A stretch of DNA of 63,747 nt, filler included, from Octopus bimaculoides (taxonomy: Eukaryota): the NCBI RefSeq assembly GCF_001194135.2. It is 5 parts of 5 records of this genome, joined end to end, with 100 filler letters (N's around TTAATTAATTAA, not from the genome) between each part and the next. Parts side by side here need not be neighbours in the genome. Positions count along the whole stretch, not along the records: positions 1 to 19,914 come from NC_068992.1; positions 20,015 to 48,925 come from NC_069003.1; positions 49,026 to 56,530 come from NC_068987.1; 2 more parts are not named here. One strand, 5' to 3'. A program made the position numbers and the translations under genes. Below the pieces are notes generated by a model. The model was not told where the DNA came from. It searched no databases and saw nothing but the letters and a program-made list of their open reading frames with translations. Shown in pieces: positions 278 through 56,374 of this stretch (position 1 is its first letter; every line of letters starts with the position of its first letter).

Positions 278-682
278 AAGGGCATTATTACAGAAAATAA
301 TAACGCCACACAGTGGACTTCTCAAAATAACCACATTTAGTACCTAATGCGAAGAAAAACAACCAACAGAAGACGACCAACTTTCTTTTAAATAAACTTA
401 ACTGTGTATCAGCCGGTTTCGCGATTACTAGAATGAATCTAGATTTCGTTCATCAGCACCATATTGTCCCACAAATATATATAAATAAACAGAATTCTCA
501 CCTCACCAAAAACGAATATACATATATATATGTATATGTTGGTGTGTTTGTGTTTGTACCTTCACCATCACTTGACAACCGATGTTGGTATGTTTATGTC
601 CCTGTAATTTAGCAGTTTAGCAAGAGACCAATATAATAAGTACCAGGCTTACAAAGAATAAGTCCTGGGATCGATTAGTGTA
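84..682 (+). mobile_element. tRNA-head SINE family A, interrupted in its (TA)n tract by a 279-522 insert
   Basis: A-box-like GCCGTGTGG and B-box-like GGGTTCAGTCCC. The body and 3' half are homologous to the inverted copy at 14842-15219. Confidence 0.85.
404..459 (-). ncRNA. Degenerate type-I hammerhead ribozyme motif (HHR family 1) in a PLE-like insert
   Basis: Minus strand reads GUG-CUGAUGA-[ACGAAAUCUAGA uucau UCUAGUAAUCGC]-GAAAC-CGGCUG-AUA-CAC. Helix III region ACCGGCUGAU is a near palindrome; helix I is only 3 bp. Confidence 0.5.
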
Positions 683-707
683 TATATATATATATATATA
701 TACACAC

Positions 708-780
708 GCAAACGTGGCTTAATGGTTAGGCTGTTGCACTCATGGGTTCAATTCCCAGACTGGGCAGCACATTATGTTCA
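708..780 (+). mobile_element. SINE head fragment
   Basis: GTGGCTTAATGG A-box and GGGTTCAATTCC B-box; similar to the head at 2958. Confidence 0.6.
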
Positions 781-784
781 TGAC

Positions 785-1010
785 TACTTCCTGTTAGATA
801 CACTTTTTCCATGCATGAGCATATAAATGGCTTTTGAGTCCCGGGAGGTGTTTGAAAATTTGCATAACAAACAGTACAAATATGTCACTTCAAGCGATAC
901 AGTATTATTTGTCTTGTCTCATTTATGGATACTTAAATGCCTTTTTAGACCAGCATCGGACTTTACTGAAATGATTTTTGTGTCATTTGGGCCAGCTGTA
1001 TGGTAATGAA
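785..1010 (-). pseudogene. Decayed LINE 3' end with two C2H2-like fingers (GLKRHLSIH; CTVCYANFQT..GLKSHLYAH)
   Basis: Manual translation across frameshifts; resembles RTE-type C-terminal zinc fingers. Confidence 0.35.
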
Positions 1011-1479
1011 TTTCCGAGATGGGAAAGACAAGTCTTACCATACATCGAGCGTATGAAGGCTGACACTAATTCTATGTTCAGCAAGGTGTTATTTTACCAT
1101 CCAACCCATGTCAGTAAACAGAACAGACATTGAATGATGATGATGACGACAACAACAACAATGAGATATAGAAAATATAGAATATTTTGGCTGGAATTCT
1201 TTTGCAATGTTTTCTGTTGTAGTGTGTCATTTAAATGGAAGTAAAATTTTAAAAGAAGGATATGAACAAAGCAAGCTTCTCTGTAATTCTGCTACAAAGA
1301 ATATAAATGTTTCCATTGTGTTTCAAAGAATAAATTCATATGGAATTACAATAATTCTATTTCAATAAAATGTTTGGCCAGTAATAATTAAGCACACAAG
1401 ATACTGCAGTAATCTATTAATAGAGGTTTTGGTTAATTCATGGATTTATTCTATTTATAGTATTGTTTTGATGGCCACC

Positions 1480-2200
1480 GCCACGACCACCATGACCACA
1501 ACCACGACGACGACCACCGCTACCACCACCACCACCACAACCACAACGACGATAACGACGACCACCACCACAACCACCATCAGCAATATTACTATCACCA
1601 ATGCCAACACCAAAATTATGGTTGTGGGTCTTCTGCACATGGGAAAAAAGACAGGGTGGTCATAATTGGCATGTCTTTCCTCATAGGTTTACTCATTCGG
1701 GGATGAACTGAGAATAAACAGTAACAACATAGTCATGGTGGGGGAGAGATAGGGGTGGTGAACTGATGGGATTACTAGCAATGATTGGGGCTATATTTTG
1801 GCCATATTTATAATTGCATTTGTTTTTGTGATGCAGGTAGTAGTAGTAGCAGCAGCAGCAGCAGTAGTAGTAGGAGGAGGAGGAGTAGCTGGAGTTAAAG
1901 TTAAAGATGGCTGATAGGATATACCATATATAAGGCATATATGTGTGCGTGTGTGTGCGCGTGTGTGTGTCTGTGAGTGTTTGGGTGTGTGTGTGTGTAT
2001 TGGGTGTCTGTGTGTGTTGGGTGTGTATGTGTGTGTTAGGTGTGTGTGCATATGTTGGGTGTGTGTGTTTGTGTGTGTGCTGAGGTGTATGTGTGTTGGG
2101 ATGTGTGTTGGGTGTGTGTGTATGTGTGTTGGGCTTGCGTATGTGTGTGTGCATATGTGTGCTTGGATGTGTGTGTATGTGTGTTGGGGTGTGTGTACAT
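1480..2200. repeat. Mixed (ACC/ACG)n, (GTA/GCA)n and degenerate (GT)n microsatellites
   Basis: Direct reading; explains the poly-T/V/HT ORFs here. Confidence 0.95.
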
Positions 2201-2229
2201 TACAAAGTGGTTTTTGGTTTTACACTTAC

Positions 2230-2315
2230 CCACAAGAAACGTCGGGATTGACACGAAGAAGCCCGTCACAGCAATAAAACGACTACTAGAACATTCTTTC
2301 AGGTATTTAAAAGCT
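2230..2315 (-). CDS. TMEM221: Internal exon of TMEM221/Jiraiya-like gene (RAFKYLKECSSSRFIAVTGFFVSIPTFLV)
   Basis: Acceptor TTGTTCTTTCTTCAG| and donor G|GTAAGT; 86 nt. It joins in frame to the previous exon (AG|A = Arg) and matches TMEM221 [24 protein letters not shown]. Further exons must lie left of the window. Confidence 0.85.
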
Positions 2316-2460
2316 CTGAAGAAAGAACAAACAAAAATAAATAAATAAATAACAAAAAGAAAACTAAAATATTTTTTCACAAGTTGACAGTTAAGTAACA
2401 TATAGACTGATTCAGTTCCAGCATATTACTGGTATTCACTAGCACATAAGTGGAGTCATT

Positions 2461-2786
2461 AGTGCGTAGAACAAAATGTTATGCAATATTTGATTTTGCT
2501 TCTACTGAGGTTGACTTTGCCTTTTGTGATTGATAAAATAAGTACCAGTTGAGCCCTGGTGTTGATTTAATCAACTGGCCCCTCTACACCCCCAAACTGC
2601 TGGCCTTGTGCCAAAATTTGAAACCAAGTGCGTAGAACAAAATGTTATGCAATATTTGATTTTGCTTCCATTGAGGTTGACTTTGGCTTTTGTGGTTGAT
2701 AAAATAAGTACCAGTTGAGCCCTGGGGTTGATTTAATCAACTGGCCCCTCTACACCCCCAAACTGCTGGCTTTGTGCCAAAATTTG
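2461..2786 (+). repeat. 166-bp tandem duplication of a SINE family D body
   Basis: AGTGCGTAGAACAAAATG starts at 2461 and 2627; the two copies are near-identical. Confidence 0.9.
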
Positions 2787-2957
2787 ATTTTGCTAAGGTT
2801 AACTTTGTCTTCCATACAGCTGGGGGGAAAAAAGGTCAAGTAGCAGCACAGGGTGGGGGTTTAGCAGGTGAGATACCTCGTGATGTTTGTCTTGGTCCCT
2901 TTGCACTTTAAGCTTTTGGGTACTTACTGATGCTCTTCACTCCCTATGAAGCATGTC

Positions 2958-3200
2958 AATGCATGTGGCTTAGTGGTTAGGGTGTTAGGCTCATTATCAT
3001 AAGACTGTGGTTTCAATTCCTGGACCGGGTGATGTGCTGTGTTCTTGAGAAAAACACTTCATTTCATGTAGCTCCAGTCCACTCAGCAGGCAAAAATGAG
3101 TAATCCTGTGACAGACTGGCATCCCGTCCAGGTGGGGAATATATACGCTATGGAAACCGTCCCTTACGAGCCGGTATGATTTGAGAAAGTAACTTTACTT
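2958..3200 (+). mobile_element. tRNA-head SINE family C with CORE/V-like central domain
   Basis: A box GTGGCTTAGTGG, B box GGTTTCAATTCC, then TTCTTGAGAAAAACACTTCA...CCTGTGACAGACTGGCATCCCGTCCAGG. Inverted copy at 4240-4402. Confidence 0.7.
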
Positions 3201-3668
3201 TTTTTTTTGTTTTTACCAATGGAGCGTAGGTCAGTGTAACAACTTTTCTTCTCTGCTCTCGACTCTGGACAGTCTTTTTTGCACCTCTGTAGTTCGATCC
3301 CTGCTTTTTCAGTTCTGCCTTAGTATCTCACCTCCAGTTATTTTTATGGCATCCTCTCTTCTGCTTCTCTTGTGGGTTAGGTTTGGTGCTCAGAAGGGGT
3401 AGCTTCTTTGCAGCTTCTTTTGAGATTTCACTGCACTGCATAATATATTTCCAAGGAGCAGCATTCCTCTCTAAGGTCTTAGCATTTTTGAATTGTGATT
3501 GCTGCTTCAATAAATTTGCATATTTTTTTCTCTAGGTAGGAGTGTTGGCCCTACACAAATCTATATTTTACTTTTGGAAGAGGTGGTCCATGTTAGTCAG
3601 GCCCCTATCCCTTGATCTGCCCAGGATGGGAAACCCCCACCAGGAGGGTGGCATTACTCTCAGGGTCA

Positions 3669-3873
3669 ATTACAGATAAGTTCACTGCCATCAATTTACC
3701 ACAGGGAAAGTTTGCCTCCATCAATTCAGTGTGAAGAAAGTTCACCACGAGTAAAGTTTACTGGGAGGAAAGTTTACCAAGAAAATACATAAACAGTATC
3801 TTACCATTGATAGTTAAAAATTATTTTATTGAAAAAAAAAGGTGAATTGGTGACAGTGAACTTACCGGACATG
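3669..3873. mobile_element. MITE, MULE-like
   Basis: Imperfect ~28-bp terminal inverted repeats (GATAAGTTCACTGCCATCAATTTACC / GGTGAATTGGTGACAGTGAACTTACC). Flanked by a 10-bp direct repeat CTCAGGGTCA at 3659-3668 and 3874-3883. Confidence 0.55.
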
Positions 3874-4239
3874 CTCAGGGTCATTGAAGTACACAAATCA
3901 CCACACTGCTGCCACAAGAACTGGACCTTGTGACAGGAGCTCTTTGATGGAAGACGTGATTCTTCACCCAGTTTAACATCACTTTGGGTACCTTTTGTAG
4001 AATTCCCTTAGTTTTAAAACATTCAGGCTAAGTCTCTGGCTTGAAAACTTCCTTCTTTTCTTCCCTTAATCTCTGAGGCCCAGACAAAAACAAAGGATCA
4101 TGTGAGCTGATCTTCCCTCCCCATTTAATTAGTAAAATAATAATAATCCTTTCAATTATAGGCACAAGGCTTGCAATTTTGGGGGAATTGAAGCCACAAT
4201 CTTATGGTTGTGAATCCAACACCCCAACCATTAAGCGAC

Positions 4240-4402
4240 ACACCTCCATTAGTGGTACCTATTTCTACAACTGAGTGAACTGGAGCAATGTGAAATGAAG
4301 TGTTTTGCTCAAGAACACAATGCATCACCTGGTCCAGGAATTGAAATTGCAATCTTACGATTGTGAATCCGACACCTTAACCACTAAGCCACACATCTCC
4401 AC
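4240..4402 (-). mobile_element. SINE family C copy
   Basis: Reverse complement of the 2958-3120 head and core. Confidence 0.75.
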
Positions 4403-4535
4403 TAATGATGGACAGACTTGGGGCTAAACAGCATAAACAACAATGACATGTGAACAACTATAGAAGCAAACACAACAACAAATATCATGTTAATGTCAAT
4501 CGTTAACAAGAACAGCAAATTACAGACACACACAA

Positions 4536-4925
4536 GTTGTTGTTGTTGGCACTCCGTCGCTTACGACGTCGAGGGTTCCAGTTGATCCGATCAACGGAAC
4601 AGCCTGCTCATGAAATTAACGTGCAAGTGGCTGAGCACTCCACAGACATGTTTACCCTTAACGTAGTTCTCGGGGATATTCAGAGTGACACCATGTGACA
4701 AGGCTGACCCTTTGAATTACAGGCACAACAGAAACAGGAAGTAAGAGTGAGAGAAAGTTGTGGTGGAAGAGTACAACAGGGTTCGCCACCATCCCCTGCC
4801 GGAGCCTCATGGAACTTTTAGGTGTTTTCGCTCAATAAACACTCACAACGCCCGGTCTGGGAATCGAAACAGCGATCCTATGACCGCGAGTCCGCTGCCT
4901 TAACCACTGGGCCATTGCACCTCCA
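4536..4925 (-). mobile_element. Near full-length tRNA-head SINE family B with (CAA)n tail
   Basis: Head GGAGGTGCAATGGCCCAGTGGTTAAGGCAG..GTTTCGATTCCC; internal hairpin GTTCCGTTGATCGGATCAACTGGAAC. Homologous pieces at 20990-21125, 28174-28290 and 31330-31575. Confidence 0.88.
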
Positions 4926-4977
4926 CACACACACACAAGTACACCCAAGCCAAGCGTAAAGAAATATGTCCACTCAC

Positions 4978-5238
4978 CTTTGGTCTCCCTGATTGACGTT
5001 AAGTATCTTGGAAGCGAAAAAACACTGCATTGCACACACCATAAGGCAACATGCATTGAGCATGATGACTAGGGTGGTGAGCGCAGTTGTCACTTCCAGG
5101 AGGTCGTTGTAATTACTGGTACTGTTGAACAGGTAGACATGGCCCAGCTGCACTGCATTCTGTTCCTGGTACAGCACAAACAGCAGCTGTAGTGACAGAC
5201 CAACGAGAACCAATGCAGCTAACGACAGTAGACCGAGG
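4978..5238 (-). CDS. TMEM221: Internal exon of TMEM221/Jiraiya-like gene, two TM helices (LGLLSLAALVLVGLSLQLLFVL...LLEVTTALTTLVIMLNACCLMVCAMQCFFASKIL)
   Basis: Acceptor TTCTTTTGTTCTCTGCATTCCAG| and donor AG|GTGAGT; 261 nt open, phase 2-2. The peptide aligns by eye with human TMEM221 TM1 ([20 protein letters not shown]) and TM2 ([21 protein letters not shown]). Confidence 0.88.
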
Positions 5239-5554
5239 CTGGAATGCAGAGAACAAAAGAATCAGAGATGTGAAGGGTGAAGCTTGACTGACAGTGGTCA
5301 ACTCACGCTAGATTATTATTATATGAAACTTTTAAGAACTTGATTCAGGTCAAATGGTGGATAATTTGAGAGAGGTCAAACAATGGGATATGATGAAGGT
5401 CTGGATGGGGGTGGGCAGAATTACATAAACACAGTTCAAATGATGTAGATCAAATTATAATGACTAGTGTTATTGGATGTAGGTTAAATGTTAATGGTAA
5501 TGTGAGATGGTTATATGAAACTGTGGGTGCCTGATGAAGATCAAATAAGAGGGA

Positions 5555-5990
5555 TCGAATGAGCGGAGTCAAATGAGATTGGATCAAGTAAAAGAGATCA
5601 AATGTGAGGAGTTAAGTGGGAGGGGTCAAATGAAAGGAGTCAAATGAGAGGGAGGAGTCACGTGAGAGTGGGTCAAGTAAAAAAGATCAAATAAGAGGGG
5701 TTAAATAAAAGGATTCAAATGAGAGGGGTCAAATGAGAGGGGTCAAATGAAAGGAGTCAAATGAAAGCAGTCAAATGAGAGGGGTCAAATGAAAGGAATC
5801 AAATGAGAGAGGTCAAATGAGAATGGGTCAAATAAGAGGGTGTGAAATGAGAGGGTTGAAATGAAAGGGGTTGAATGAGAGAAGTCAAATGAGGGAGTCA
5901 AGTAAGAGAGATCAAATGAGAGGGGGTCAAATGAGAGGGGTCTAACGAGAGGAGTCAAATGAGAGAGGTCAAATGAGAGGGGTCAATGAA
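5555..5990 (+). repeat. Minisatellite, ~14-bp unit GGTCAAATGAGAGG
   Basis: More than 20 degenerate tandem copies read directly. Confidence 0.9.
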
Positions 5991-6749
5991 GGGGTAAACT
6001 ATTAGAACATAATTCAGATGATGTAGATTAAATTAGTTATTTAATATCAGTCAAATGACAGTTAATAAAAAGAGTCAAACGAGAGAAGTAAAATTAGAGG
6101 CCAATTATAAAAAGAAAAGGAACATTAATTAGATGATGGGGACCAAACAATTGTAAGTGTTGTTTAGCCCACATCATTCTTAATTAAAGAGGTCTTTGAT
6201 CAAAAGCATTCTAGCTGTGACCATCCAGTCTTTATCTTGGGTACTGATTATCTTGGGTACTGATTATGTTTTTAATGACGAGGGAGATTTGTCAGCTATT
6301 TCTAGCAGGTGAAGTTACTACATAGAGGCTTCCTTGATGACAATGGTTAGTAGATGATGGTCAAATATGGCTGGTCAGTGATATATGCATATCATTTAAT
6401 GTATGCCGCATAAAGATAAGAGCTACTAATAGTTTCATGCTATGAAGATATGTGGCTAGGCAGGTTTTTATAATGTGCCTTGTGTCTTCAAGCAATCTTC
6501 AGGCTTGGATACACAAGGTACATTATAATCTTGGAAGCAGAAAAACACTGCATAGCTCACACCATAAGATATAATCTTGGAGACACAAGGCATGTTATAA
6601 AACTCTGTCTAGTCATGTTTCCATAGCAAGAAACTGTCAGTAGCTCTTATCATTATACAATGTGCATTTAACGATATCTATCGCTCATTGGATGGAGTAC
6701 ATTTTTTTTGTTGATCTTAACAGAACAGTAAACTATGTATATGTATATC

Positions 6750-7437
6750 CCAGCTGTAAACATTTTTAGATAAACAACATATAGGAATCTCATTAACAAT
6801 TTTGTCTTTGGTGTCTTTTCTCTGACAGACCATATTTAGCCTATATATATTTATTTGAAATCAAATGTGATAGTGGCATATGCCCGCAGGTTTATATGCA
6901 GAAGCAATGTGATATAGTGTACTAGTCAAGCCTTTCTAGATAGGATTGGTGAGATAAGTGGTGCAAAGTGTCTGCAGTAAGAAATAGAAATTGAGTTAGT
7001 TTCTAGCAGACTTCACCTCTACAGAGTCCACTATATAAAACTATAAAACATAGAGCAAAGTATTATGATTTGGTAGGAAATGTCCAAACGTTATTATTAT
7101 TATTTTTTTTTTAATCAATAAATAATTCCCATTACGTTTTGTTGTCATCAACACTTTATAATCTATTACTGTACATAGACATCAACAAGTTGTTTTCCTG
7201 TTTTTATAATCAAAATAAACCAAATATCAAACAGAATTGATAGTACATCAGTAAACAAGTTGGTACCATAATGATAATTACATCTGATAACACACAGAAT
7301 ATGAATTAATAATTGAATCTTTTTATGAAATGATTCGGCTATCAACCAAAGTTAAATAGAGTTAATATAAGTTTAATAGAGATTAATTATGTCTTTATGG
7401 AATTAAACATTACATTAACTCATTTGGGAAATAATTG

Positions 7438-7469
<32 letters not shown>

Positions 7470-7820
7470 GAATATTTCTGTTTCCTCAGTTGCTATGGCT
7501 TAGATTTGTAGCACAAACATTGGCTGAGTCCCAAACGTTAACTGACTGTCTAAGAGTTCAAACTGTAATCACTGTTTTCAGATGTGAAAATAATTATTAA
7601 CACTAAACAAGATTCTGTCAAGGATTGATGACATTAGTGACTAACCTTTTAGAACTCTGGTAAAAGCATTAAGCTAGTTGACCAGAGAAAACACAATAGA
7701 AACAGCAGATGCTTAACACATTATAATTCCAGTTGTAAACATTTTTAGATAAACAACATATGGGAATCTCATTAACAATTTTGTCTTTGGTGTCTTTTCT
7801 CTGACAGACCATATTTAGCC
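6750..7820. repeat. 92-bp direct repeats (6750-6841, 7729-7820), 2 mismatches, 979 bp apart
   Basis: Direct comparison. Confidence 0.9.
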
Positions 7821-9300: not shown

Positions 9301-9472
9301 AGATTTATAACATATCATATGTGATGGCACAAAAGGTGCATGCCAATTTCAGCAGCACATATTCAGGGGAAAATATTTTTAGTTCATTAAGACATGTAAT
9401 GCAGACCCAACTTAAAATATAGGACCAGGGGTGATGTTTTGAAACATTTTTTTTGTATTACCATCAAATACA

Positions 9473-9695
9473 TTATTTACATTCAACAGATATTTGTCCT
9501 CATCTTGTTTGTTGTTAACACAATGTTTCAGCTGATATACTCTCCAGCCTTCTTGAAATTTCCCCAAGATACCTGAAGAAGGTTGGAGGGTATATCAGGC
9601 GAAACATTGTGTTAACAACAAACAAGATGAGGACAAATATCCATCAAATGTAAATAATGTAAATAATTCCTCATCTCTTAAATATAGAACTGTAT
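9473..9695. mobile_element. PLE-like non-autonomous insertion: inverted partial repeat plus forward copy carrying a decayed HHR (9568-9613), 11-bp TSD
   Basis: 9473-9553 is the reverse complement of ~9577-9660. TSD CATCAAATACA at 9462-9472 and 9696-9706. Same family as 56150-56374. Confidence 0.8.
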
Positions 9696-10750: not shown

Positions 10751-10782
<32 letters not shown>

Positions 10783-11208: not shown

Positions 11209-11249
<41 letters not shown>

Positions 11250-12818: not shown

Positions 12819-12946
12819 CACACACGTGAATATATATGTATGTATGTATATGTATGTACACATGTGTGTGTATATATATATATAGGTTATAAGGGGTAAT
12901 GGTGTCAAGAAGACCCAAAGATGTCAGGTAACCATTTTCTTGCACT

Positions 12947-12994
12947 GTCTCTGATGAAGGGATATATAAAATATCCCAGAAACTGCTGTAAGAC
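12947..12994 (+). ncRNA. Type-I hammerhead ribozyme motif (HHR family 3), best-preserved fold in the window
   Basis: GUCU-CUGAUGA-A-GGGAUAU(AUAAA)AUAUCCC-A-GAAAC-UGCU-GUA^AGAC: helix I 4 bp, helix II 7 bp, helix III AC/GU. A partial second copy lies at 20015-20045. Confidence 0.72.
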
Positions 12995-13974
12995 CTTCTC
13001 TTTATAAATGTTCTGAAATCTTTCACAACCTTAGATTTTTTATCTCATTCAGTTAATTTTATACACACACACACACATATATATATAAACACACATAAAG
13101 ACAGATAGACAGATAGATAAATAGATAGATAGATAAAGTGAATTGACAGAGTTGTTTGAGATTTCGATAAAATACCCTATGACAATCCTACCAGCACTCT
13201 GAGTTCAAATCACAAAAAGGTCAATTCAGCCTTTCACCTTTTCAGGGTTCATAAATAAAGTACTATTGCTGGGAGCGATTCTTCTCTTGGCTGTGTTCCG
13301 ATATGGAGAGAGAAGGATTCTAAATGATTTTAAAATGTTGGAGGTGGACTGTGTCTTACACCAGCACCTGTGTAAGTTTTTTTAGGAGTTGATGACCCAA
13401 GGTAAAGCATACATATACACACTGACTTAGAAAAACCATCCAACCCATGCCAGCATGGAAAAACTCTGGTAATAATCTTGATGAGTTACAAAGAATTGAT
13501 TAAAACTCTCAACTGCTTTAGCCATATTAATTATAGTCTTGCTTTTTTAATAAAATACAGGAGTTAATTGAAATTTGAGATATATTTCTAATAATGCTAT
13601 TTAACATGCTCTGTAAATATTTGATCTTGTTATTATTACATGTGATTTCCCTAGTGGTGGCAGTTATAAAAAGTGAGATAACCATTTCTTCATATTACAA
13701 GACAAAATCAGAAATCTGAATTTGAAATTAAGGAAATGAGGAAAAAGATGTTCAGAATTTACATGTTTATTGTTTTGTTTATTTATTACAAAATTCTTAG
13801 TTTCTAGTTGGTGATAATCATGTATAGCACCCTTTCATTCCTTTTAAAAATCATCAGCATGATAAAACTTGTGACTTATTGATTAAACATTATTTTATGA
13901 AGTGAGACATTTTCATTAAAGATGAAAGTAATTACAGTTTTGTTTTTACTATTCTCTAATCCATTATCTTTTAT

Positions 13975-19970: not shown

Positions 19971-20107
19971 NNNNNNNNNNNNNNNNNNNNNNNNNNNNNN
20001 NNNNNNNNNNNNNNCCAGGATATCCCAGAAATAACTGTAAGACTATTTCATTATAAATGTCCTGAAAACTTCTCACAGTCTTGGATTTGTTATCTCATTC
20101 GGTCTAA

Positions 20108-21199: not shown

Positions 21200-21937
21200 G
21201 TGGAAGGAAGATCTTTAAATGGGCTACCAGTGACATATGCTGCATATAGTCATGCAAAAGTACCAATTAGAAACATGATTGGTTGGCTCACGCCATACCA
21301 TTGGTACAGCAAAAGGTATTCCCTTCCGTTTTCCATTCAGCCACTGTATAAGCCATGAGTACAACACGGTGCAGCATATATGAGGTGCCCACCCCTTGTC
21401 TTGTTCCCCAACTTTACACCCGAAATAATATTTATAGGCAATTTTTAATTTGGTGGCAATGTTCCTCCGCTGGTCACGCGGAGCAAATTTTCCACAGACA
21501 TAACAAAAGTTGTCTGGGTGATTCACACAGCCCCTCTCCTATTTATGATCTAACATACTGAACACAATTAAATCAGTAATCATACCACACATGACGGCAG
21601 CTCAAACGACACTGAGAGTTACCAAGAGCAAACTGACGTATACGTCATTGCACACAATATGTCAGCGCCATCTTTTGCTAAACTAAACAATGAACTCCCT
21701 TATCGGTTGTTTTATTGCTGTTATTACTTTAATTTTGAATTAAGATCGCTTTCATTTTAGCAAATTATATAATATGGCATATATCTAGCCAAAAGTATAG
21801 TTATAACCTGCTGTATGCGCATAACTCAAAATCCTGATGCACTAGAACAATTCTGAGTACGGATTCGGAACCAGCATCCTCGATTTAGTCTAAAATATCT
21901 GCTTTTACCCAAGTAGCAAAATCTTTGTTGTCCAGTG
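21200..21937 (-). mobile_element. Chapaev3-like (CMC) DNA transposon 5' fragment with transposase N-terminus
   Basis: HPDNFCYVCG..AYKYYFG.KVGEQDKGWAPH.C..PMVWREPTNH..YFC motif string; candidate terminus CACTGGACAACAAA at 21937. Confidence 0.75.
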
Positions 21938-23410: not shown

Positions 23411-23525
23411 TGTAGTAAAGATTGTTCGCCAACATAACATGGCAGTCCTGGTTTAGGACGAATGTTGCTGTAATTCGTCCTAAACCAGGACTGCCATGTT
23501 ATGTTGGCAAACAATCTTTGCTACA
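23411..23525. repeat. Fold-back: 53-bp arms, 9-nt loop, 2 mismatches
   Basis: 23411-23463 is the reverse complement of 23473-23525. Confidence 0.92.
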
Positions 23526-35610: not shown

Positions 35611-36114
35611 GATGATCTATACATAGCCGCTTGTCATTTATCCTGTTCGGCCTCTGGTCTTAGTCGAAAGTTTTCTTATCAGAGAATATCCAAAGTATAG
35701 CCGTGTCCGTGAGGGGTTTTAATTTTGTTAAATAACCGCTTCGCACGGATAAAACGGTTTTAAAAGATTGTGCTCAAGATTGTTCCTTAGAACAATCTTT
35801 TCTTAGCGGTCAGACCATATGGGGTTTACACCTAACTTAATGGATGTCCACTTAGTGGTCATCCCTCTTATATGTATGTAATATAATTTTTCTGAATCTT
35901 CAGATTTTTCAATATGGTTGGCCAATGGTTTTGAATTGATATTAATCTAATTAATATTCAATTTTTTCCCCTTATTATTATATATATAAATATATATATA
36001 TATAGTCAATTCAAACAGGAACAAGCAAGAAAAAAACACGAAAAAAACAACAACGTGAGGACATGGAATAAGTACAGTCTTATTGGACGCTCAGGAAAGG
36101 AAAGAAAAGAAAGG

Positions 36115-36149
36115 ATTTCGCGTTTCGAGCGGAGCTCTTCGTCAGAAAT
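36115..36149 (-). ncRNA. Degenerate hammerhead motif (HHR family 4) in a PLE-like repeat (~36005-36190)
   Basis: AUUU-CUGACGA-A-GAGC(UCC)GCUC-GAAAC-GCG-AAAU. Helices I and II are intact, but the cleavage triplet is GCG rather than GUH, so it is probably inactive. Confidence 0.55.
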
Positions 36150-36470
36150 ATAGGAAAAGTCCAAAGAAGGGAAGACAGAGAAAGAAAATCGCCGACGATG
36201 CACTGTGCACGAAGAATATTTTGAAGACGTGAGTTCTTTGATAGTTATGTTGGCACTTTATCGATCGAAAAATAACCATTAGGGAAGAAAATCCTCTTCA
36301 GCCTACAAAGCAATCTACAACTAAGTGCGCTCAAGCGTTTGCAGTATTTCCATTAGGAGCAGTTACAAATCTAAACACCGTTGGTATAAGCCAGAAAATT
36401 ATTTTGCGTTATGCAGGCTCCAATATTTCGAAAGATGGAAATTTTTTTAATCATTTTTTTTTATATATAC

Positions 36471-44868: not shown

Positions 44869-44900
<32 letters not shown>

Positions 44901-45344: not shown

Positions 45345-45419
<75 letters not shown>

Positions 45420-46467: not shown

Positions 46468-46565
<98 letters not shown>

Positions 46566-47363: not shown

Positions 47364-47590
47364 TTTTTTTTTATTGCCCACAAGGGGATAAACATAGAGG
47401 GGACAAACAAAGACAGACAAAAGGATTAAGTCGATTACATCGACTCCAATGCGTAACTGGTACTTATTTTACCGACCCCCGAAAGGATGAAAGGCAAAGT
47501 CGACCTCGGCGGAATTTGAACTCAGAACGTACTGGCAGACGAAATGCCGTTAAGTATTTCGCCTGACACGCTAAGGTCTCTGCCAGCTCG
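47364..47590 (-). mobile_element. Full-length SINE family D
   Basis: Reverse complement of 26328-26560. Confidence 0.88.
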
Positions 47591-48199
47591 AGCATCAGCA
47601 TCAAAGACAACAATATTAGCAATAACAACTACAAGAAGAAGTGAATGAGAGAGCATCGACATTGTCATTCGATATACTACAAGCAGCAGTTAAACTGCTT
47701 CACATTACACCCAGCTTACCCAATGTCCTGAAAAAAAAATATGGAAGAATCCACAATCTAACATGCATTCTTATAGACGCACAAATATTAGCAAAATGAC
47801 GGATACGGCTTCAACGTCGTCGGTGTTTCAGGGACTCTCCAAACAACAAGAACAAGCTGTGTATATTTTTTAATATTTCCTGCAAAGAAGACAGTTTTAG
47901 AATACAAAATAAAGTCAATGGTTAAAATGGGAAATAAATGGAATGATTGAGAAAAAAATAAGATAAGCCCTCCACAAGAAAAGTTAATGATAAAGTGGAG
48001 GTTAGCATATTTGATGTAGTAAGTCAGGACATTAATGTATTAAAATGATACCTTGATGATGAAAATAATCATTGTATAAATGATTTATTCAGATAAGAAA
48101 AAATAGTAAAGGGAAGACAACCTTGAAATTTTAATTCATTAAAATTTATTAACTATAGAATGCAATGGGGTGTGAGTCTGATTTTTAGCAGTACAGTGA

Positions 48200-48240
48200 C
48201 AATCACAGACATATTTCGGTCTTGTTAGACCTCGTCAGCG
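48200..48240 (-). ncRNA. Hammerhead core motif (HHR family 5)
   Basis: CG-CUGACGA-GGUCU(AACA)AGACC-GAAAU-AU-GUC^UG: canonical G10.1-C11.1 5-bp helix II, self-pairing AUAUGU and a GUC triplet. Helix I is weak. Confidence 0.55.
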
Positions 48241-49025
48241 AAGGGAAATAGTTGATTAATAAAAGGTTATAATGTGATTATTTATTCTTTTATTCTCATT
48301 TCATGGAGCAAAATAAAGAAAGAAAACAGGAAAATACACAACGGATTGTTTCGTTACAGATTTCAATATATATACGTATGTATGTATGCCTGCATCTATG
48401 TATGCGTCTATGTGTGTATGATTGTACATATGTAAGGGGTATAGCTTTTCTTTCAGACATACATTGAATACATGAATGTGTTCCAGTATTATTTTTACAA
48501 CATGCATTTTTGTCTCATTTGCGTAAGAACTGTTTCAGTATTTTTAACAGTTAATTTCTTAAAAGCGTCATAAACGTTTCCAGACATTCAAAGGTCCAAA
48601 CTTCGAAATAAATTTATGTACGTGCATGTTGGTAGCAACAACTAACAACATCAGTTTATTTATATCAAGGAGGACCAATACAACTGGAATGTGAATTTTG
48701 ACCGTTAGAACTACACATCACACGAGACTCAGACATTAGTCGGACGAAGAATGTATGAAAATCTAGAAACGTTGATGATGCATTTAGAAATTTTACTGTT
48801 TTCAAATAGAAAGGTAAGGAATGAAATTTTTCCAAAGCAATAAAACCTTGATATGAAAGATATAACTAGAAAACAAGAACACTCATCCGTATGTGTACGT
48901 GTTATATATATATTTATTATTTTTTNNNNNNNNNNNNNNNNNNNNNNNNNNNNNNNNNNNNNNNNNNNNTTAATTAATTAANNNNNNNNNNNNNNNNNNN
49001 NNNNNNNNNNNNNNNNNNNNNNNNN

Positions 49026-49606
49026 CTGGGATGAGGTGGTGAGGCATGACCTTCGAACATTGGGCCTCACTGAGGCAATGACTTCTGACCAAGACCTTTG
49101 GAAATATGCTGTGCGTGAGAAGACCCGGCAAGCCAAGTGAGACCTAAATCGAAGGCCTCAGGCAGCCCACTTATACGTACCTTCCTTCATTGGACACTAA
49201 ACTCCACTTGCGAAGACCTGTTGAGGTAAGTGAAATGGAAATCAAATTAAATTCGACGACTAGCACCCATGCCAACATCGTTTCCTTCATTGGAAATGAA
49301 ACTCGGCTTGCGAAGACCTATTGGGGCAAGCGAAAGCGAAACCGTCAATGGCACCTGTGCCCAGCAATGCCTTCCTGGCACTTGTGCCAGATGGCACGTG
49401 TAAAGACATTCGAGTGAGATCGTTGCCAGTGCCGCTGAACTGACTCCTGTGCAGGTTGGCGTTAGGAAGGGCATCCAGCTGTAGAAACTCTGCCAAATCA
49501 GATTGGAGCCTGGTGTAGCCATCTGGTTTCACCAGTCCTCAGTCAAATCATCCAACCCATGCTAGCATGGAAAGCGGATGTTAAACGATGATGATGACGA
49601 TGATGA
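49026..49606 (+). mobile_element. Young RTE LINE 3' end
   Basis: WDEVVRHDLRTLGLTEAMTSDQDLWKYAVREKTRQAK*, then 3' UTR and (GAT)n tail. Confidence 0.88.
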
Positions 49607-51371
49607 TATATATATATATCTCTGTATGTATCACTCTCTCTCTCTGTATCTTATCTATAAAAGGCAGATTTTCTCTGTGTGTATGCATGTTTAAAATTTA
49701 TACATTTAAAATTTATACATTTACACAATTCCAAATTTTGTGGATAAAAAAATCAGAATTAATATTCTAGATACCATAACGTAGGTCATTCCTTCAATCA
49801 AAATAACTACCAATTTCGAAATAAATCGATAAAACTATGAACATAACTATTTTTCCCTCTAATACAATCTAATTCCCTCTTTCTGTTACCATTACAAATC
49901 GTTTCAACTGCTACTTTCTCTTATGAATGTTTACGAACGATCTAAGAAAAAAGACAGAAAGAAAGGAAGGAGAAAGACTGAGAGTCAAATAAACAGACAT
50001 ACTACCAATACTTATGTAACTATGGTTACATATGACCTTGTAATAATTCGACCGTGCGAACCAAAGGAGATGGCGACGTAGACGGAAAAGGTTCCTTTTT
50101 ACCATGTCGCACGGTCGAACACAAAATAACATAATATATAAGATAGAAGGCTCGTCGTGAGAGATACGAGCCATAGTGCCAGTAAAAGAACAGATTAGGA
50201 CAGACAACCGATATATAAGAGAGTNNNNNNNNNNTGCCAGTAAAAGAACAGATTAGGACAGACAACCGATATATAAGAGAGTAAGTTTATTAACATAGTG
50301 AAACTGTTTGTGTCTGTGTGTGCGTACATGCGACATATATAATTAACACAGTAGATAAGTCAGGCCTTCATGTACAAGAGAATGTATACAACAATGTGAA
50401 GTAACGGACAGTCGTATAAGCAATAGTGTGTGTACAATATATGAGAGTACAAGTGTGCGTGTGAATGAGAGGAACACAGAACATAGAAAGAGTGTCTGTA
50501 ACATAGACTACAAGTCTCAAACACTGAGATAGAGAAATACCAGTTCGTATTAGAGTTACACAAGGAGATAGAATTTCATATTCAGGAAGTTGTGGCCAAG
50601 TAGCAGAGCTGTGGTATCACAATATGTGTGTTGAGCATCGAATGCTGTGACCGTTTACCTGATATTCTCGCTGGTTAGTTCTGCCTGTTGCTCGTGGTGG
50701 AAACAATCCACTCAAACAGTGTCGATACAAAACCGAGTGTGTTGATATTGGTGTGTACCTGGTGGTGGGGTTGCTGGTGCACGACATTGTGGTAGACAGT
50801 ACATAGGTGGTGAAGACATCGGCGCTGGAACTGGCTGTAGCTGTGTTCTGTATGTGTGGTCAGCGACCAGACCTGTGAGAGATCTGGAATTGAAGACGAC
50901 TACCGTCGTTGGATCGGGCTTATTTGTAGCTGAAATAGGGCTCACCGGAAACCCAGAAAAACTCTATCTCACGTGACCTTATCACAAAGCCACGATTGGA
51001 CATAATCCACCCTTAGCAAGCAGAACATGGGGACAATTGCCGCGCAAATAAGAACTTATCAGGAGGGTGGGCAGAAGGGTCCAAGGCAGCCGATGGCTAG
51101 ATGTTAGCAGCTTCGTTATCATTTGTGATTGAATGCCCGAGAGAGAGAGAGGTTTCACTACAACCTCATTCTAATTGGTGTGAATTGTATGTTCACTCCC
51201 CATTTCTAACACCGTCCTTCAGCAAGATAACAAAAAAAAAAAATAGCGACACATCTTTTTCAAATGCGATCGACAAACTTTTATTCCCTACAAACTCTGA
51301 GTTTTTTGGAAAATCTTTTTCCACACATTTACTTACTACCATATATATACACAGAGAATACACAAGCTGCA

Positions 51372-53520
51372 GAAAGTTTCCAACAGTGCACCGTACACTT
51401 AGCCAAAATGGCTTCATACAATGCTGCTTCCAGGGCTACTGAGGGCCCGGAACAAAGGGTGACTTGCCTGGCTTGAAACGCTGCTGCTAATGCTGCTTCC
51501 AGGGCTTCAGAGGGCCAGGAACAAAGGGCCACTCGACTGGCTAGAAACGCTGCGGCTACTGCTGCTTCCAGATCTTCTGAATGTTTGCAACAACAGACGA
51601 CTTGCCTTCCTAGGAATGCTGTGGCTATGACTGCTTCCATAGCTTCTGAAGATGCAGTTTCGAGACATAAGAACTGTTGACGGTGAATTATGTGACACTT
51701 TCCAGGAGGCCTGCTTCTGGCGTGGACTTTTGGAGGACGATTCACAGTGGGACGCCACTATGGCAGAGGGCATTTTGTTAAAATCCCCTAAAAGACTAAG
51801 ATCACTTTTCGCTATTCTACTCCTATTGTGCCATTTGGGTGATCCTGCTTCTTTATGGATTACCTACAAAGATTACATGTCTGAAGATTTCCTGCGTCAA
51901 GCTCAGTTGCTAAATTCGTCAATGGAGGTCAGGTACAGTGAACTCATTTACAGCAGGGCGCTGCTTGAAATCGAAGATACTGTTCTCAATATGGGTGGTA
52001 GTGCGTTGGCAGTATATGGCCTACTTTCAACAAACCGGGAAGGTGCAAACACACTGTCTTCAGATTTGCTGCGTGAGACATGTTATAATGTTGACGAGCT
52101 TGCCCACTACATAGCGGAGAATGAGCCAAAGCCCCTTCCAGAACAGAAGTTTGCTTACAATTCCGTTATTAATTCTGTCCGGGACAAAGCTGGGGGATTT
52201 TTTTCCTCGACGCTCCTGGGGGCACTGGCAAAACTTCTCTCACAAAATTAATATTGGTTGAGATTTGGTGAACACATTGCCTTAGCTGTAGCATCATCTG
52301 GAATTGCAGCTACTTTGTTGCCAGGTGGCAGGACAGCTCACTCCACTTTCAAGCTTCCACTTGACTTAGCGAAGACTGAGATACCAATTTGCAACATCAG
52401 TAACAGCTCTGATCAGGCAGAAGTGTTCAGACGATGCAAACTTATCGTTTGGGATGAATGCACAATGGCCCATAGAGGTGCTTTTGAGGAGCTAGATAGA
52501 TCTCTGGGAGACATCAAAGACTCTACAGCTCCCATGGGAGGCATAACACTTCTTCTTTCAGGGGACTTCAGGCAAACACTGCCAGTTATTTCCAAGGGGA
52601 CTAGAGCTGATACAGTACGTGCGTGTCTTAAGTCATCCACATTGTGGCCCCTGGTGAAGATTCTCAAACTTAACACTAACATGCGTGCTCATATGCTAGG
52701 TTACATAGCATCAGCACAATTTTCTCACACCCTCCTTGCACTTGGCGAAGGCAAACTCCCTGCGACGAAAAGGGTAATGTTGCCATCGATTCACTTTGTA
52801 CTATTGTTAATACGCCTTCTGATCTCACGGATGCAGTGTTCCCAGATCTCCAAGCAAATTATCAGAATATGGATTGGATTGGCCAAAGGGCTATTCTGGC
52901 CCCGAAGAAAAAAACTGTTAACCATATTAATGATCAAAGGCTAAAACTCATTCCTGGAGATGACTATATATATAAGTCTATCGATAGAACTCCTGACCCC
53001 GAGGATGTCCTCAACTATCCAATAGAGGTACTAAATTCCTTTGAGCCCCCTGGACTACCCCCACACATTCTGAAACTTAAAATTGGTGCTCATTCGAAAT
53101 TTGGTCCCGCTGAAACAATGCAATGGGACACGTTTGATCATTAAGAGGTCACAGTAATCACAGGGTGTGATCATTAAGAGGCCACAGTAATCACGTTTGA
53201 TCATTAAGAGGCCACAGTAATCACAGGGTGTGGTCAAGGCAACATTGTGCTCATACCGAGGATGCATCTTTTCCCATCAGGAGCAGACCTACCTTTCACA
53301 TTTTGGAGGTCCCAGTTCCCAGTCAGGCCATGCTTCACAATGTCAATTAACAAAGCACAGGGGCAAATGCTGTCTGTCACAGGAATACATTTGGGGGAGC
53401 TGTGTTTCTCTCATGGTCAGCTTTACGTTGGCTGCTCATGTGTGGGCAGCAAGAGTGATGCTTTTGCGTTCATTCCACATGGAAAACAAAAAACATTGCG
53501 TACAAGGAGGTTTTATAGGA
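51372..53520 (+). pseudogene. Helitron RepHel pseudogene: four STPR-like 23-aa repeats fused to a PIF1-family helicase; HUH Rep domain absent
   Basis: FRDIRTVDG..TFQEAC..GLLEDD; frameshifted Walker A FLDAPGGTGKT (~52203); SSGIAATLLPGGRTAHS; DECTM; GDFRQTLPV; FPVRPCFTMSINKAQGQ; FSHGQLYVG. Multiple frameshifts and stops. Confidence 0.92.
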
Positions 53521-55119
53521 TTACTTCGCTTCCTAATTTTATAACTTTTTCTAATTTAAAAAAAATTTTTGCCTTTTCGTCAGTAATTTCTAAGTAGGTG
53601 TAGGTTAATATTCATTGCAGTGCACTTGACACTCCCAACCATCAGCTATAAAAAGGCTGATTCTCATGATGTTACAAAACTTCATTACAAATCAGACCCT
53701 GCTCAAAAATTAGCTGTTGTTCCTCACTAACCCCCATTCGGCAGGCATCGGAGGACCATGGACACGTTACTATTTCACTTCTGTACGACTCTTTTATGAC
53801 GACATTTACATTTTTAGGTGGTTCCCTGCAATTACTTCACACTTCACCAACACCTGGCCTCCACTCAGCTCTATTTCCCTCCCTTCGTCAGCACAGCAGC
53901 CTCATCTTCTACATCCGACGTACATGAAACATCTCCCCCCTTCCATCTCCTCTCTCAACATTACAGTTTACATCAGCGGCAACAGGATCACGACATACAA
54001 TTTCAAAACCAAGCAACATATCATTTTATACAACAACAAATGTAATCATAACGACGATCAATGAAACAAATGGATAAAAATAATTACATGAAGTAACTAT
54101 CTCTTACATGCCATTACAATTTACATCAAATAACAAGACTTCAAAAGTCGATAAAACTAAATACATACATCCTCTCTCTCACTATTATATTTTNNNNNNN
54201 NNNNNNNNNNNNNNNNNNNNNNNNNNNNNNNNNNNNNNNNNNNNNNNNNNNNNNNNNNNNNNNNNNNNNNNNNNNNNNNNNNNNNNNNNNNNNNNNNNNN
54301 NNNNNNNNNNNNNNNNNNNNNNNNNNNNNNNNNNNNNNNNNNNNNNNNNNNNNNNNNNNNNNNNNNNNNNNNNNNNNNNNNNNNNNNNNNNNNNNNNNNN
54401 NNNNNNNNNNNNNNNNNNNNNNNNNNNNNNNNNNNNNNNNNNNNNNNNNNNNNNNNNNNNNNNNNNNNNNNNNNNNNNNNNNNNNNNNNNNNNNNNNNNN
54501 NNNNNNNNNNNNNNNNNNNNNNNNNNNNNNNNNNNNNNNNNNNNNNNNNNNNNNNNNNNNNNNNNNNNNNNNNNNNNNNNNNNNNNNNNNNNNNNNNNNN
54601 NNNNNNNNNNNNNNNNNNNNNNNNNNNNNNNNNNNNNNNNNNNNNNNNNNNNNNNNNNNNNNNNNNNNNNNNNNNNNNNNNNNNNNNNNNNNNNNNNNNN
54701 NNNNNNNNNNNNNNNNNNNNNNNNNNNNNNNNNNNNNNNNNNNNNNNNNNNNNNNNNNNNNNNNNNNNNNNNNNNNNNNNNNNNNNNNNNNNNNNNNNNN
54801 NNNNNNNNNNNNNNNNNNNNNNNNNNNNNNNNNNNNNNNNNNNNNNNNNNNNNNNNNNNNNNNNNNNNNNNNNNNNNNNNNNNNNNNNNNNNNNNNNNNN
54901 NNNNNNNNNNNNNNNNNNNNNNNNNNNNNNNNNNNNNNNNNNNNNNNNNNNNNNNNNNNNNNNNNNNNNNNNNNNNNNNNNNNNNNNNNNNNNNNNNNNN
55001 NNNNNNNNNNNNNNNNNNNNNNNNNNNNNNNNNNNNNNNNNNNNNNNNNNNNNNNNNNNNNNNNNNNNNNNNNNNNNNNNNNNNNNNNNNNNNNNNNNNN
55101 NNNNNNNNNNNNNNNNNNN

Positions 55120-55563
55120 GGACATAATAGCCCCTATTGAAGAGATAGCCGTAAAGATATCAAAAGCTCAGGGAGATGAACTAAGGTGGAAGGTGAGACA
55201 GGTACTGGAAAAAGCGAAACTTCCCAAATCAAACATCACTAAGGAAGAAAAGTTCGCTATCAAAAGGCTACAAAGAGACAATTCTATCATAATACTCCCA
55301 GCTGACAAGGGAAATGCTACAGTGGTGATGAACAAGTCTGACTACTCTGAAAAATTGGCAAGTCTTATAAGTGATGGTAGCTACAGTAGAGTAAAGAAAG
55401 ACCCAACTCTGAAAACAGAGAAGAAGTTGTCACAGATCTTGATCAAGAACAAGGATCACTTCACACCAATGAAGTACAGACAGCTGACTCAACATTACAG
55501 TAAACTACCACATATGTACGGTCTCCCTAAGATTCACAAGGAAGGTATTCCACTAAGACCTAT
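55120..55563 (+). mobile_element. Penelope-like element ORF fragment (RT N-terminal region), stop-free
   Basis: KSNITKEEKFAIKRL..IIILPADKGNATVVMNKSDY..PHMYGLPKIHKEGIPLRP; bounded by N gaps. Confidence 0.92.
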
Positions 55564-56149
55564 NNNNNNNNNNAATACATACATCCTCTCTCTCACTATT
55601 ATATTTTACACCATTACATTTTACATCAAATACAAAATATTCAACAGTAACAGGTCATTTTACACAACATCTCCATGACAGAAGTGTTGTGATTCATCTA
55701 TTCAGCACCACTAGACTCTTGCCGGTCTGACATATGGTGAGTAGATGCTATTGTTGTATATTTTCAAACTTACCCATATTTACTTACCCATAATTAATCC
55801 CCCTCTTTCCTCCATAGGGCATCCATTCTGTTTTCACAGAGCATGAAGTTTTGTAACAGCATGTCTGCTGCTGTTGGTGGAAAAGGAACACACCGTATTC
55901 ATCTGCAAACGTTTTACACACCCTTCCAAGACTACCTACCAAATTGTTACGATTGTGAGAATGATAACACAGCCTTTTCAGAGCCACCTTACATTCTTAG
56001 AGTGTTGCAATGCTCTTTGCAGGGCTTTCTATCCAGCTGCAAATCGATTAACTTATATCAATCTTTGCCTCAATAATCATAATTGAGTAGAGTCATTAAC
56101 AGTACTTTAAAGCAATTCAGCCCTGAGCAATGCTGGGCACTTCTGCTAG

Positions 56150-56374
56150 TATATCTATATTATTTACATTATTTACATTTGACGGATATTTGTCCTCATC
56201 TTGTTTGTTGTTAACACAACGTTTCGGCTGATATACCCTCCAGCCTTCGTCAGGTGTCTTGGGGAAATTTCGAACCTGGGTTCTCATTCCTAACGATGTT
56301 ACTATTATTATATTATTATTATTATTACTATTATTAATCAGGTTGCTGCCATGAATCGAACTCGGAATCTTGGG
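56150..56374 (-). mobile_element. Inverted PLE terminal-repeat-like unit: Pol III B-box, (AAT)n spacer, hammerhead, tail
   Basis: B box GAGTTCGATTC (56353-56363); homologous to 9554-9660; abuts a forward ORF fragment. Confidence 0.72.
56213..56258 (-). ncRNA. Minimal type-I hammerhead ribozyme (HHR family 2)
   Basis: GACAC-CUGACGA-A-GGCUG(GAGGGUAUAU)CAGCC-GAAAC-GUU^GUGUU: helix I 5 bp, helix II 5-6 bp, palindromic ACGU in place of helix III. Confidence 0.75.

What the first reader, a model, noticed from the sequence alone, without database searches (positions are those of the whole stretch)
404..56258. Four to five unrelated hammerhead-motif families within 56 kb
Seen: CUGANGA-helix II-GAAA-N(UH) cores with different helix sequences at 404-459 (-), 9568-9613 (+), 12947-12994 (+), 36115-36149 (-), 48200-48240 (-) and 56213-56258 (-). 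Each has a short self-complementary or nearly self-complementary helix-III segment (ACCGGCUGAU, ACUGCUGU, AUAUGU, ACGU). Helices II pair with completely different sequences, which acts like covariation. Inference: a genome-wide radiation of PLE-derived ribozyme repeats. Several lie within an intron of a host gene.
Basis: partly seen in the sequence, partly recalled or inferred. Interest (0 to 1): 0.75.

Follow-up and report, generated by a model that had tools for sequence, protein, structure and literature searches.

The report
Penelope hammerheads, one with tRNA promoter
The six hammerhead-shaped RNA motifs are real and belong to five repeat families, two of them shown to be the ends of Penelope-type jumping genes, which is a known arrangement; the unusual part is that the commonest family carries a tRNA-derived stretch where most of its short copies begin, so it is likely read by RNA polymerase III like a SINE, although neither that nor self-cutting has been tested.

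Summary
All six motifs are at the stated coordinates and exceed chance (strict scan 3 vs 0.07 shuffled). They form five families (9568 and 56213 are one). "Within 56 kb" is partly an artefact: the pack joins three chromosomes. Families B and C are pseudo-LTRs of Penelope-like elements with RT and GIY-YIG. A, D and E look like such elements but were not tied to an ORF. A systematic 703-kb sample gives about 14 motifs per Mb in at least nine families. This is the known picture of Cervera and de la Pena 2014. Only one window copy matches its family's ribozyme. No host gene was found. Two extras: family B's pseudo-LTR opens with a tRNA-derived A-box/B-box head where 16 of 20 arms start, so its short copies are likely Pol III transcripts copied by the element's own RT. 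Family D mostly has G at the cleavage site (23 of 30), predicted to cut poorly. The scan noted Penelope hammerheads many times and the tRNA head once in another genome (e1-8669850). Cleavage and Pol III transcription are untested.

The parts
278..516 (-). Family A copy (part of a ~512-nt circularly permuted, ORF-less unit); hammerhead at 404-459, decayed
   Evidence: 3' boundary approximate
9469..9695 (.). Family B two-armed insertion: inverted arm 9469-9552 (-), direct arm 9555-9695 (+) with hammerhead 9568-9613 and tail; 13-bp target duplication with one mismatch
12892..13056 (+). Family C copy: short inverted piece of the element's 3' extension joined to a direct arm with hammerhead 12947-12994; end of a Neptune-like PLE
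   Evidence: boundaries approximate
20020..20088 (+).
36004..36203 (-). Family D copy beside (TA)n; hammerhead 36115-36149 lacks U16.1 and has G17
47975..48243 (-). Family E copy (old family, 70-82% identity between copies); hammerhead 48200-48240
   Evidence: 3' boundary approximate
55121..55561 (+). Family B ORF piece (N-terminal RT region with DKG motif) between assembly gaps; probably a misplaced part of the adjacent insertion (inference)
56159..56374 (-). Family B inverted 5' arm: 3' half of the tRNA-derived head (about 56340-56374), (AAT)n, ATG, intact hammerhead 56213-56258
56377..56530 (+). Family B ORF N-terminal piece; runs into a 2.2-kb gap, after which the 3' pseudo-LTR with head, hammerhead and tail follows (L130, outside the window)

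Best explanation
The six motifs are minimal type I hammerheads in five repeat families; families B and C are the pseudo-LTR ends of protein-coding Penelope-like retrotransposons, A, D and E are likely ends or non-coding dependants of other such elements, and the short copies of family B likely derive from RNA polymerase III transcripts that start at a tRNA-derived head inside its pseudo-LTR. Shown: family B is a ~2.7-kb element. Its frame starts at an ATG 34 nt before the hammerhead core, runs through the ribozyme and tail into RT and GIY-YIG, and is followed by a 3' UTR holding the tRNA-derived head, (AAT)n and the hammerhead again. Insertions are often two-armed, with the 30-nt tail on one arm and a target duplication. 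Inferred mechanism: the element's protein binds RNA spanning the pseudo-LTR/ORF junction, cuts AT-rich DNA and primes reverse transcription at two internal sites (with and without tail), as shown for Poseidon of Anolis. One cDNA runs to the RNA's 5' end at tRNA position 1; the other is joined to it by microhomology, which gives the fold-backs. The ribozymes would act, if at all, as dimers through the palindromic helix III or with the protein's help. Cutting is probably not needed for spreading, since the main form of family D has G17.
For: Family B ORF: near-intact copy L165, 855-aa open frame, RVT_1 E 4.5e-11, relatives with RVT_1 + PF28514 + PF26215. Of 19 copies found with the GIY-YIG end, 14 show the hammerhead and 17 the A box downstream. 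ATG-to-tail spacing is in frame in 21 of 24 arms. 14 of 28 loci are inverted pairs, the tail is on exactly one arm in 14 of 14, and a shared flank word of 8 or more letters is found in 13 of 14 (a few may be chance in AT-rich DNA). Family C: GIY-YIG end contiguous with a ~1.3-kb 3' UTR and the hammerhead in L284 and L298; RT upstream in L415 (46% identity to family F RT, E 6e-51). Family majorities restore core, helices and palindromic helix III (AUCGGCCGAU, ACGU, ACAGCUGU, ACGU, ACAUGU). Head: aligns end to end with real tRNAs of this genome (best tRNA-Ala, z about 8; profile of 15 tRNAs E 1.7e-5), position 1 on position 1. 16 of 20 arms found by their 3' part and reaching the head start begin at -5..+6; 18 of 30 loci found by the head itself begin there; 4 of 5 in the systematic sample do (read by eye). 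About 7% would end in such an interval at the upstream truncation rate. No run of four T from head to 3' end in 23 of 23 copies. One representative locus of each of A, C, D, E and F has no A/B box pair. Family D: G17 in 23 of 30 copies picked by a pattern that left position 17 free; G17 strongly impairs minimal hammerheads (PMC3884650, abstract). Catalytic mutants do not affect Poseidon insertion in vitro (PMC11167929, main text).
Against: No ORF link for A, D or E: tblastn with up to seven PLE proteins found only neighbouring insertions, and none of 40 distant GIY-YIG loci led to them. Rfam and ARAGORN do not call the head a tRNA. Two of the 16 starts (L008, L019) are doubtful alignments, and copies are not independent events. 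The two ORF-bearing copies with a readable 5' pseudo-LTR (L165, L175) begin downstream of the head at inversion joints, so a head-initiated full-length RNA is not shown. Lack of T runs is not specific: RTE-like LINE frames here also have few (2 in about 3.7 kb), and a synonymous-codon shuffle gives P 0.34. RNA reads show both directions equally, 64-70% run on into unlike flanks, and no pile-up of ends at the head or cut site. Minimum-energy dimers show the hammerhead fold for A and C only, not for B, D or E. No excess of arms starting at the cut site: 5 of 41 within -4..+2, about 2 expected by hand count.
Confidence: 0.7

Rival explanations
1. All five families are plain Pol II-read Penelope ends. 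The tRNA-like piece in family B is a captured SINE head that is now a passenger. 5' ends cluster there because reverse transcriptase stalls or folds back at the small hairpin that spans the head's start, or because a Pol II start happens to lie there.
For: A 5-bp hairpin straddles position 1 and many copies fold back on it. Penelope promoters lie in the pseudo-LTR (PMC6765202, passage). RNA reads show no discrete start. Kojima argues that autonomous elements must use Pol II (PMC10886601, passage).
Against: Ends fall at the 5' side of the tRNA-like unit, where Pol III starts, not at its 3' base, where a stalled RT would stop (inference). A and B boxes are kept in the majority of 71 aligned heads while nearby positions split between subfamilies. 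Many starts show no fold-back (L012, L017, L021).
Confidence: 0.3
2. The short family-B copies are a separate SINE family with its own non-coding master genes, mobilised in trans by the Penelope protein.
For: Only 1 of 8 family-B insertions in the systematic sample reaches the ORF; the layout head + repeat + partner's 3' end is that of a SINE.
Against: The same head sits in the 3' UTR of ORF-bearing copies (17 of 19), and short copies are 97-100% like their pseudo-LTR. No diagnostic SINE-only variant was seen, though I did not build a tree.
Confidence: 0.25
3. The families are non-LTR retrozymes that replicate as ribozyme-cut RNA circles.
For: Family A copies are circular permutations of a ~512-nt unit, and L034 holds a direct repeat at that period. 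Such elements are known from mussels (PMC7229834, passages).
Against: No array with two hammerheads was seen for A among 19 loci; B and C are tied to ORFs; no go-back joint at the cut site among the joints shown for B. Plausible for A only.
Confidence: 0.15
4. The motifs are chance matches.
For: Two of 11 strict hits in the systematic sample look like chance, and shuffles give about 1 per 703 kb.
Against: 3 vs 0.07 and 5 vs 0.21 in the window; family majorities are better hammerheads than the window copies; 253 exact matches of the family D pattern against 0 for the reversed control.
Confidence: 0.01

Closest known systems
Minimal hammerheads (min-HHR) in pLTRs of metazoan Penelope-like elements (Cervera and de la Pena 2014, PMC4209133; parts 1-2 of 4 read)
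   Same: [quoted passage not shown]
   Different: The parts read do not treat cephalopods. Families A and C have an extra base on both sides of helix II; family D mostly has G17; family B has a tRNA-derived head.
Poseidon_Ac of Anolis (Frangieh et al. 2024, PMC11167929; parts 1-2 of 4 read) and EN+ PLE structure (Craig et al. 2021, PMC8557442; passages)
   Same: Single RT + GIY-YIG ORF that starts within the pLTR at the hammerhead, inverted 5'-truncated arm, 30-40 nt tail on one end, AT-rich targets.
   Different: In family B the ATG lies upstream of the whole ribozyme, and the pLTR begins with a tRNA-derived A/B-box unit; no such unit is mentioned in the parts read.
Schistosome SINE-like hammerhead repeats (Sm-alpha/Sj-alpha; seen only through the review PMC6765202, passages; the original papers were not held)
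   Same: Pol III-type promoter plus type I hammerhead in a short repeat.
   Different: Described as non-coding tandem SINE-like units; here the head is part of an autonomous, protein-coding element and precedes the ribozyme in dispersed two-armed copies.
Helenus, Ajax, Cassandra (TRIMp3; Kojima 2024, PMC10886601; passages)
   Same: Small-RNA-derived Pol III promoter inside a terminal repeat.
   Different: Those are non-autonomous LTR elements that do not share the promoter with their helper; family B is an autonomous Penelope-like element.
Metazoan non-LTR retrozymes (PMC7229834, passages; bioRxiv 10.64898/2026.07.22.740005, part 1 of 5)
   Same: ORF-less permuted unit with one type I hammerhead (family A); proposed PLE origin.
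   Different: No multi-hammerhead array or circle shown here.

Membership tests
Minimal type I hammerhead of metazoan PLEs | Core CUGANGA ... GAAA with helices I and II | tested here: met
   All five family majorities; excess over shuffles.
Minimal type I hammerhead of metazoan PLEs | Palindromic positions 15.1-16.1 (dimer helix III) | tested here: met
   Perfect palindromes of 10, 4, 8, 4 and 6 nt in the majorities of A-E.
Minimal type I hammerhead of metazoan PLEs | G10.1-C11.1 pair, with or without an extra base after A9 | tested here: inconclusive
   Met in B, D, E; A and C have an unpaired base on both sides before helix II.
Minimal type I hammerhead of metazoan PLEs | N-U-H cleavage triplet | tested here: inconclusive
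   Met in A (AUA), B (GUU), C (GUA), E (GUC); not met in the main form of D (G17 in 23 of 30).
Minimal type I hammerhead of metazoan PLEs | Self-cleavage | not testable with these tools
   No end pile-up in RNA reads and no clear genomic footprint; neither is a sensitive test.
EN+ Penelope-like element (families B, C) | Single ORF with RT and C-terminal GIY-YIG upstream of the hammerhead-bearing repeat | tested here: met
   B. C. GIY-YIG recognised by motif and similarity; Pfam gave no hit for these domains.
EN+ Penelope-like element (families B, C) | pLTR at both ends, inverted truncated arm, tail on one end, target duplication | tested here: met
   B. C: inverted pairs in 5 of 20 loci and an optional 3' extension; target duplications not counted for C.
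EN+ Penelope-like element (families B, C) | Clade (B Penelope/Poseidon, C Neptune-like) | tested here: inconclusive
   By motifs only: DKG and no linker Zn finger in B; cysteine-rich linker in C (against PMC8557442 passages). No tree built.
EN+ Penelope-like element (families A, D, E) | Link to an RT/GIY-YIG ORF | tested here: inconclusive
   None found. D extends at least 476 nt upstream into CA-rich sequence like C's 3' UTR; one D copy lies 330 nt after a GIY-YIG frame but the link is unique to that locus.
tRNA-derived SINE (short family-B copies) | tRNA-derived head with A and B boxes at the 5' end | tested here: met
   Rfam and ARAGORN negative.
tRNA-derived SINE (short family-B copies) | Separate non-coding master; head absent from the helper | tested here: not met
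   The head is in the autonomous element itself (17 of 19); so it works like a SINE but is not filed as one.
tRNA-derived SINE (short family-B copies) | Transcription by Pol III | not testable with these tools
   Indirect only.
Non-LTR retrozyme (family A) | Tandem ORF-less units of 150-1000 nt, each with a hammerhead | tested here: inconclusive
   512-nt period in L034 and permuted ends, but one hammerhead per locus seen.
Non-LTR retrozyme (family A) | Circular RNA | not tested
   No RNA laid on family A.

The most novel reading that the evidence does not exclude
Family B is an autonomous Penelope-like retrotransposon that has built a tRNA-derived Pol III promoter into its own pseudo-LTR. The same RNA start yields some 20,000 SINE-like solo pseudo-LTRs in cis and, because the sense strand has no conserved run of four T over 2.6 kb, possibly the full-length template too. 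It would be a living intermediate between a Penelope element and hammerhead SINEs such as schistosome Sm-alpha.
Probability: 0.45. Interest if true: 0.65.

Novelty: new variant of a known kind. Interest (0 to 1): 0.42.

Why it matters
The finding as written is known biology. If the family-B reading holds, it shows how ribozyme-bearing SINE-like repeats can arise inside their own helper, and challenges the view that autonomous retroelements need Pol II promoters. It also gives a 300-nt natural template for testing Penelope two-site priming. Family D offers a natural test of an open question, whether PLE hammerheads need to cut: a predicted weak G17 form dominates the sampled copies while U, C and A forms coexist.

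Tried and rejected
Rfam scan of the window: only microsatellite-driven miRNA matches among those shown. Rfam on L115 used the wrong range; the repeat on L113 and ARAGORN found no tRNA. Phage blastn of the head: nothing useful. Density from flanks of repeat loci gave no incidental hit under a stricter descriptor in 429 kb (a looser scan did find family F); replaced by the systematic sample. T-run scarcity as proof of full-length Pol III transcription: rejected, not specific. Cleavage footprint in insertion 5' ends (lead from earlier notes): B 5 of 41 truncated arms near the cut after dropping 14 arms at -80..-76, most of which reflect a subfamily difference; C 1 of 18; not convincing. Run search: no RNA holder listed. 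RNA reads from three runs of one study, with the species label of the best holders and mostly 90-95% alike, show the element in transcripts but no ends or circles; the threefold depth rise at the head mirrors copy structure and is not independent. No RNA lay over stretch 1 was obtained, so the host-gene intron stays open; Pfam found no exon. ORF links for A, D, E: none. Within-family conservation of the core was not used as evidence, since copies decay neutrally and top hits are biased to the query; R-scape was not run. Not in print as far as searched: searches showed no paper on a tRNA-headed PLE or on cephalopod PLE hammerheads; PMC13282606 has no 'hammerhead' or 'ribozyme'; PMC8490949 passages were not relevant. 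Lunse 2017 and Ferbeyre 1998 were not held, no supplements were read, and Repbase/Dfam could not be searched; any of these may already hold the family or the core variants.
Full report
The window is a pack of five stretches of a 2.34-Gb animal genome, probably an octopus (inference from size, chromosome number and microsatellites, and from earlier notes; not tested). The six motifs lie on three chromosomes: three on C12, two on C23, one on C7.

Observation. A descriptor that allows the extra A typical of these ribozymes finds 3 strict and 5 relaxed hits against 0.07 and 0.21 in 200 shuffles. The motifs at 9568 and 56213 are one family (B); 404 (A), 12947 (C), 36115 (D) and 48200 (E) are four others. 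Each is a dispersed repeat. The family majorities are better hammerheads than the window copies, with intact cores, paired helices I and II of unrelated sequence, and perfect palindromes at helix III. Only the 56213 copy matches its majority. Related subfamilies change helix II while keeping pairing (C against L230). R-scape was not run.

Genome-wide. In 80 evenly spaced 10-kb stretches (703 kb without N, from C1-C16 and C23) the strict descriptor gives 11 hits against 1.0 shuffled. That scales to about 29,000 motifs (95% interval 13,000-55,000), and 8 family-B insertions scale to about 23,000 (10,000-46,000), if the sample is representative. Four more families appear in the sample, so there are at least nine. 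The window is about three- to fivefold richer than average.

Family B. Copies found with the upstream sequence carry a GIY-YIG end. L165 is nearly complete: inverted arm, pseudo-LTR, then one frame through the hammerhead and tail into RT and GIY-YIG. The ATG lies 34 nt before the core and is in frame in 21 of 24 arms; in Poseidon_Ac the ORF also starts at the hammerhead (PMC11167929, main text). 14 of 28 loci are inverted pairs with the tail on one arm only, 13 of them with a candidate target duplication, the layout given for EN+ PLEs (PMC8557442, passage). The window's 56213 copy is the inverted 5' arm of such an insertion: ORF piece at 56377-56530, a 2.2-kb gap, then the 3' pseudo-LTR.

Family C is the end of a second, Neptune-like element: GIY-YIG, about 1.3 kb of 3' UTR and the hammerhead are contiguous in L284 and L298, with RT upstream in L415. 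Family F, outside the window, also follows a GIY-YIG frame. A is an ORF-less permuted unit of about 512 nt. D extends at least 476 nt upstream without a detected ORF. E is old and unlinked. For these three, PLE origin is inferred from ribozyme type, inversions seen in a few copies and microsatellite targets.

So the core of the finding is what Cervera and de la Pena described in 2014 (PMC4209133, parts 1-2 read): many families per genome, mostly solitary truncated ends, weak cleavage in vitro as dimers. Earlier notes of this scan say the same for this and other genomes.

The tRNA-derived head. Between the stop codon and the (AAT)n run of family B lies a 75-nt unit with A and B boxes. Rfam and ARAGORN miss it, but it aligns end to end with real tRNAs of this genome (best tRNA-Ala, z about 8; profile E 1.7e-5). 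Copy 5' ends cluster at its first base: 16 of 20 arms selected on their 3' part (two doubtful), 18 of 30 loci selected on the head, and 4 of 5 in the systematic sample, against about 7% expected from the upstream truncation rate. There is no four-T run from head to 3' end in 23 of 23 copies, and none conserved along the whole sense strand, but LINE frames here are also poor in T runs, so this only permits Pol III reading. The head is in the autonomous element (17 of 19), so the short copies work like a SINE without being a separate family as far as tested. Against: a small hairpin at the head start could cause fold-back, the two readable ORF-bearing 5' ends begin downstream of the head, and RNA reads show only read-through without discrete ends. 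I reached this reading before opening earlier notes; one note from another genome reports the same layout (e1-8669850), which is not independent support. Literature searches showed no such element; nearest are schistosome hammerhead SINE-like repeats (via PMC6765202, passages) and Kojima's TRIMp3 (PMC10886601, passages). Repbase, Dfam, supplements and two key papers were not available.

Family D. With position 17 left free, 23 of 30 copies have G, 4 U, 2 C, 1 A (the first 30 of 253 matches, all on C1 and C2). G17 strongly impairs minimal hammerheads, although tertiary-stabilised ones tolerate it (PMC3884650, abstract). This fits the report that cleavage is dispensable for insertion in vitro. 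I found no convincing genomic footprint of cleavage in B or C.

The intron claim could not be confirmed: no Pfam-level exon in 199 frames, and no RNA lay over that stretch.

Verdict: real and known in kind, with one family that is a new variant worth a Pol III test. Interest 0.42.

Noticed in passing
window 51643-53597 (+): Broken Helitron-type PIF1 helicase region (PF05970 E 9e-52), preceded by a 69-nt tandem repeat at 51420-51651.
   Followed up: partly
window 21224-21538 (-): Cysteine-rich frame that resembles a DNA-transposon transposase N-terminus (Chapaev-like, from recall); no Pfam hit.
   Followed up: no
window 23416-23520: Near-perfect ~105-nt hairpin, MITE-like or fold-back.
   Followed up: no
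window 5541-5986 and 2461-2787: 14-nt minisatellite (31 copies) and a 166-nt tandem duplication.
   Followed up: no
L252:5775 (-), L046: Family F hammerhead about 540 nt after a Neptune-like GIY-YIG; near-intact frames up to 937 aa exist, 14,656 first-look candidates.
   Followed up: partly
L255:8026, L258:6588, L262:3047/3380, L352, L377, L379: Further unrelated hammerhead families, including an inverted pair in L262 and a UUGA-core variant after a GIY-YIG frame.
   Followed up: no
families A and C (window 404-459, 12947-12994): Both have an unpaired base on each side at the foot of helix II (A with C; A with G), and many C copies read CCGAUGA, possibly the ancestral state before CpG decay.
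   Followed up: partly
L408:617-1530 (oriented): A very AT-rich GIY-YIG frame with an (AAT)n insert ends 330 nt before a family-D hammerhead; unique among loci fetched, may be a chimera.
   Followed up: partly
L144, L159: Family-B heads followed by (AAT)n and then unrelated DNA, without the hammerhead.
   Followed up: no
L130:2530-2760: A ~220-nt near-perfect fold-back directly after the 3' end of the window's family-B insertion.
   Followed up: no
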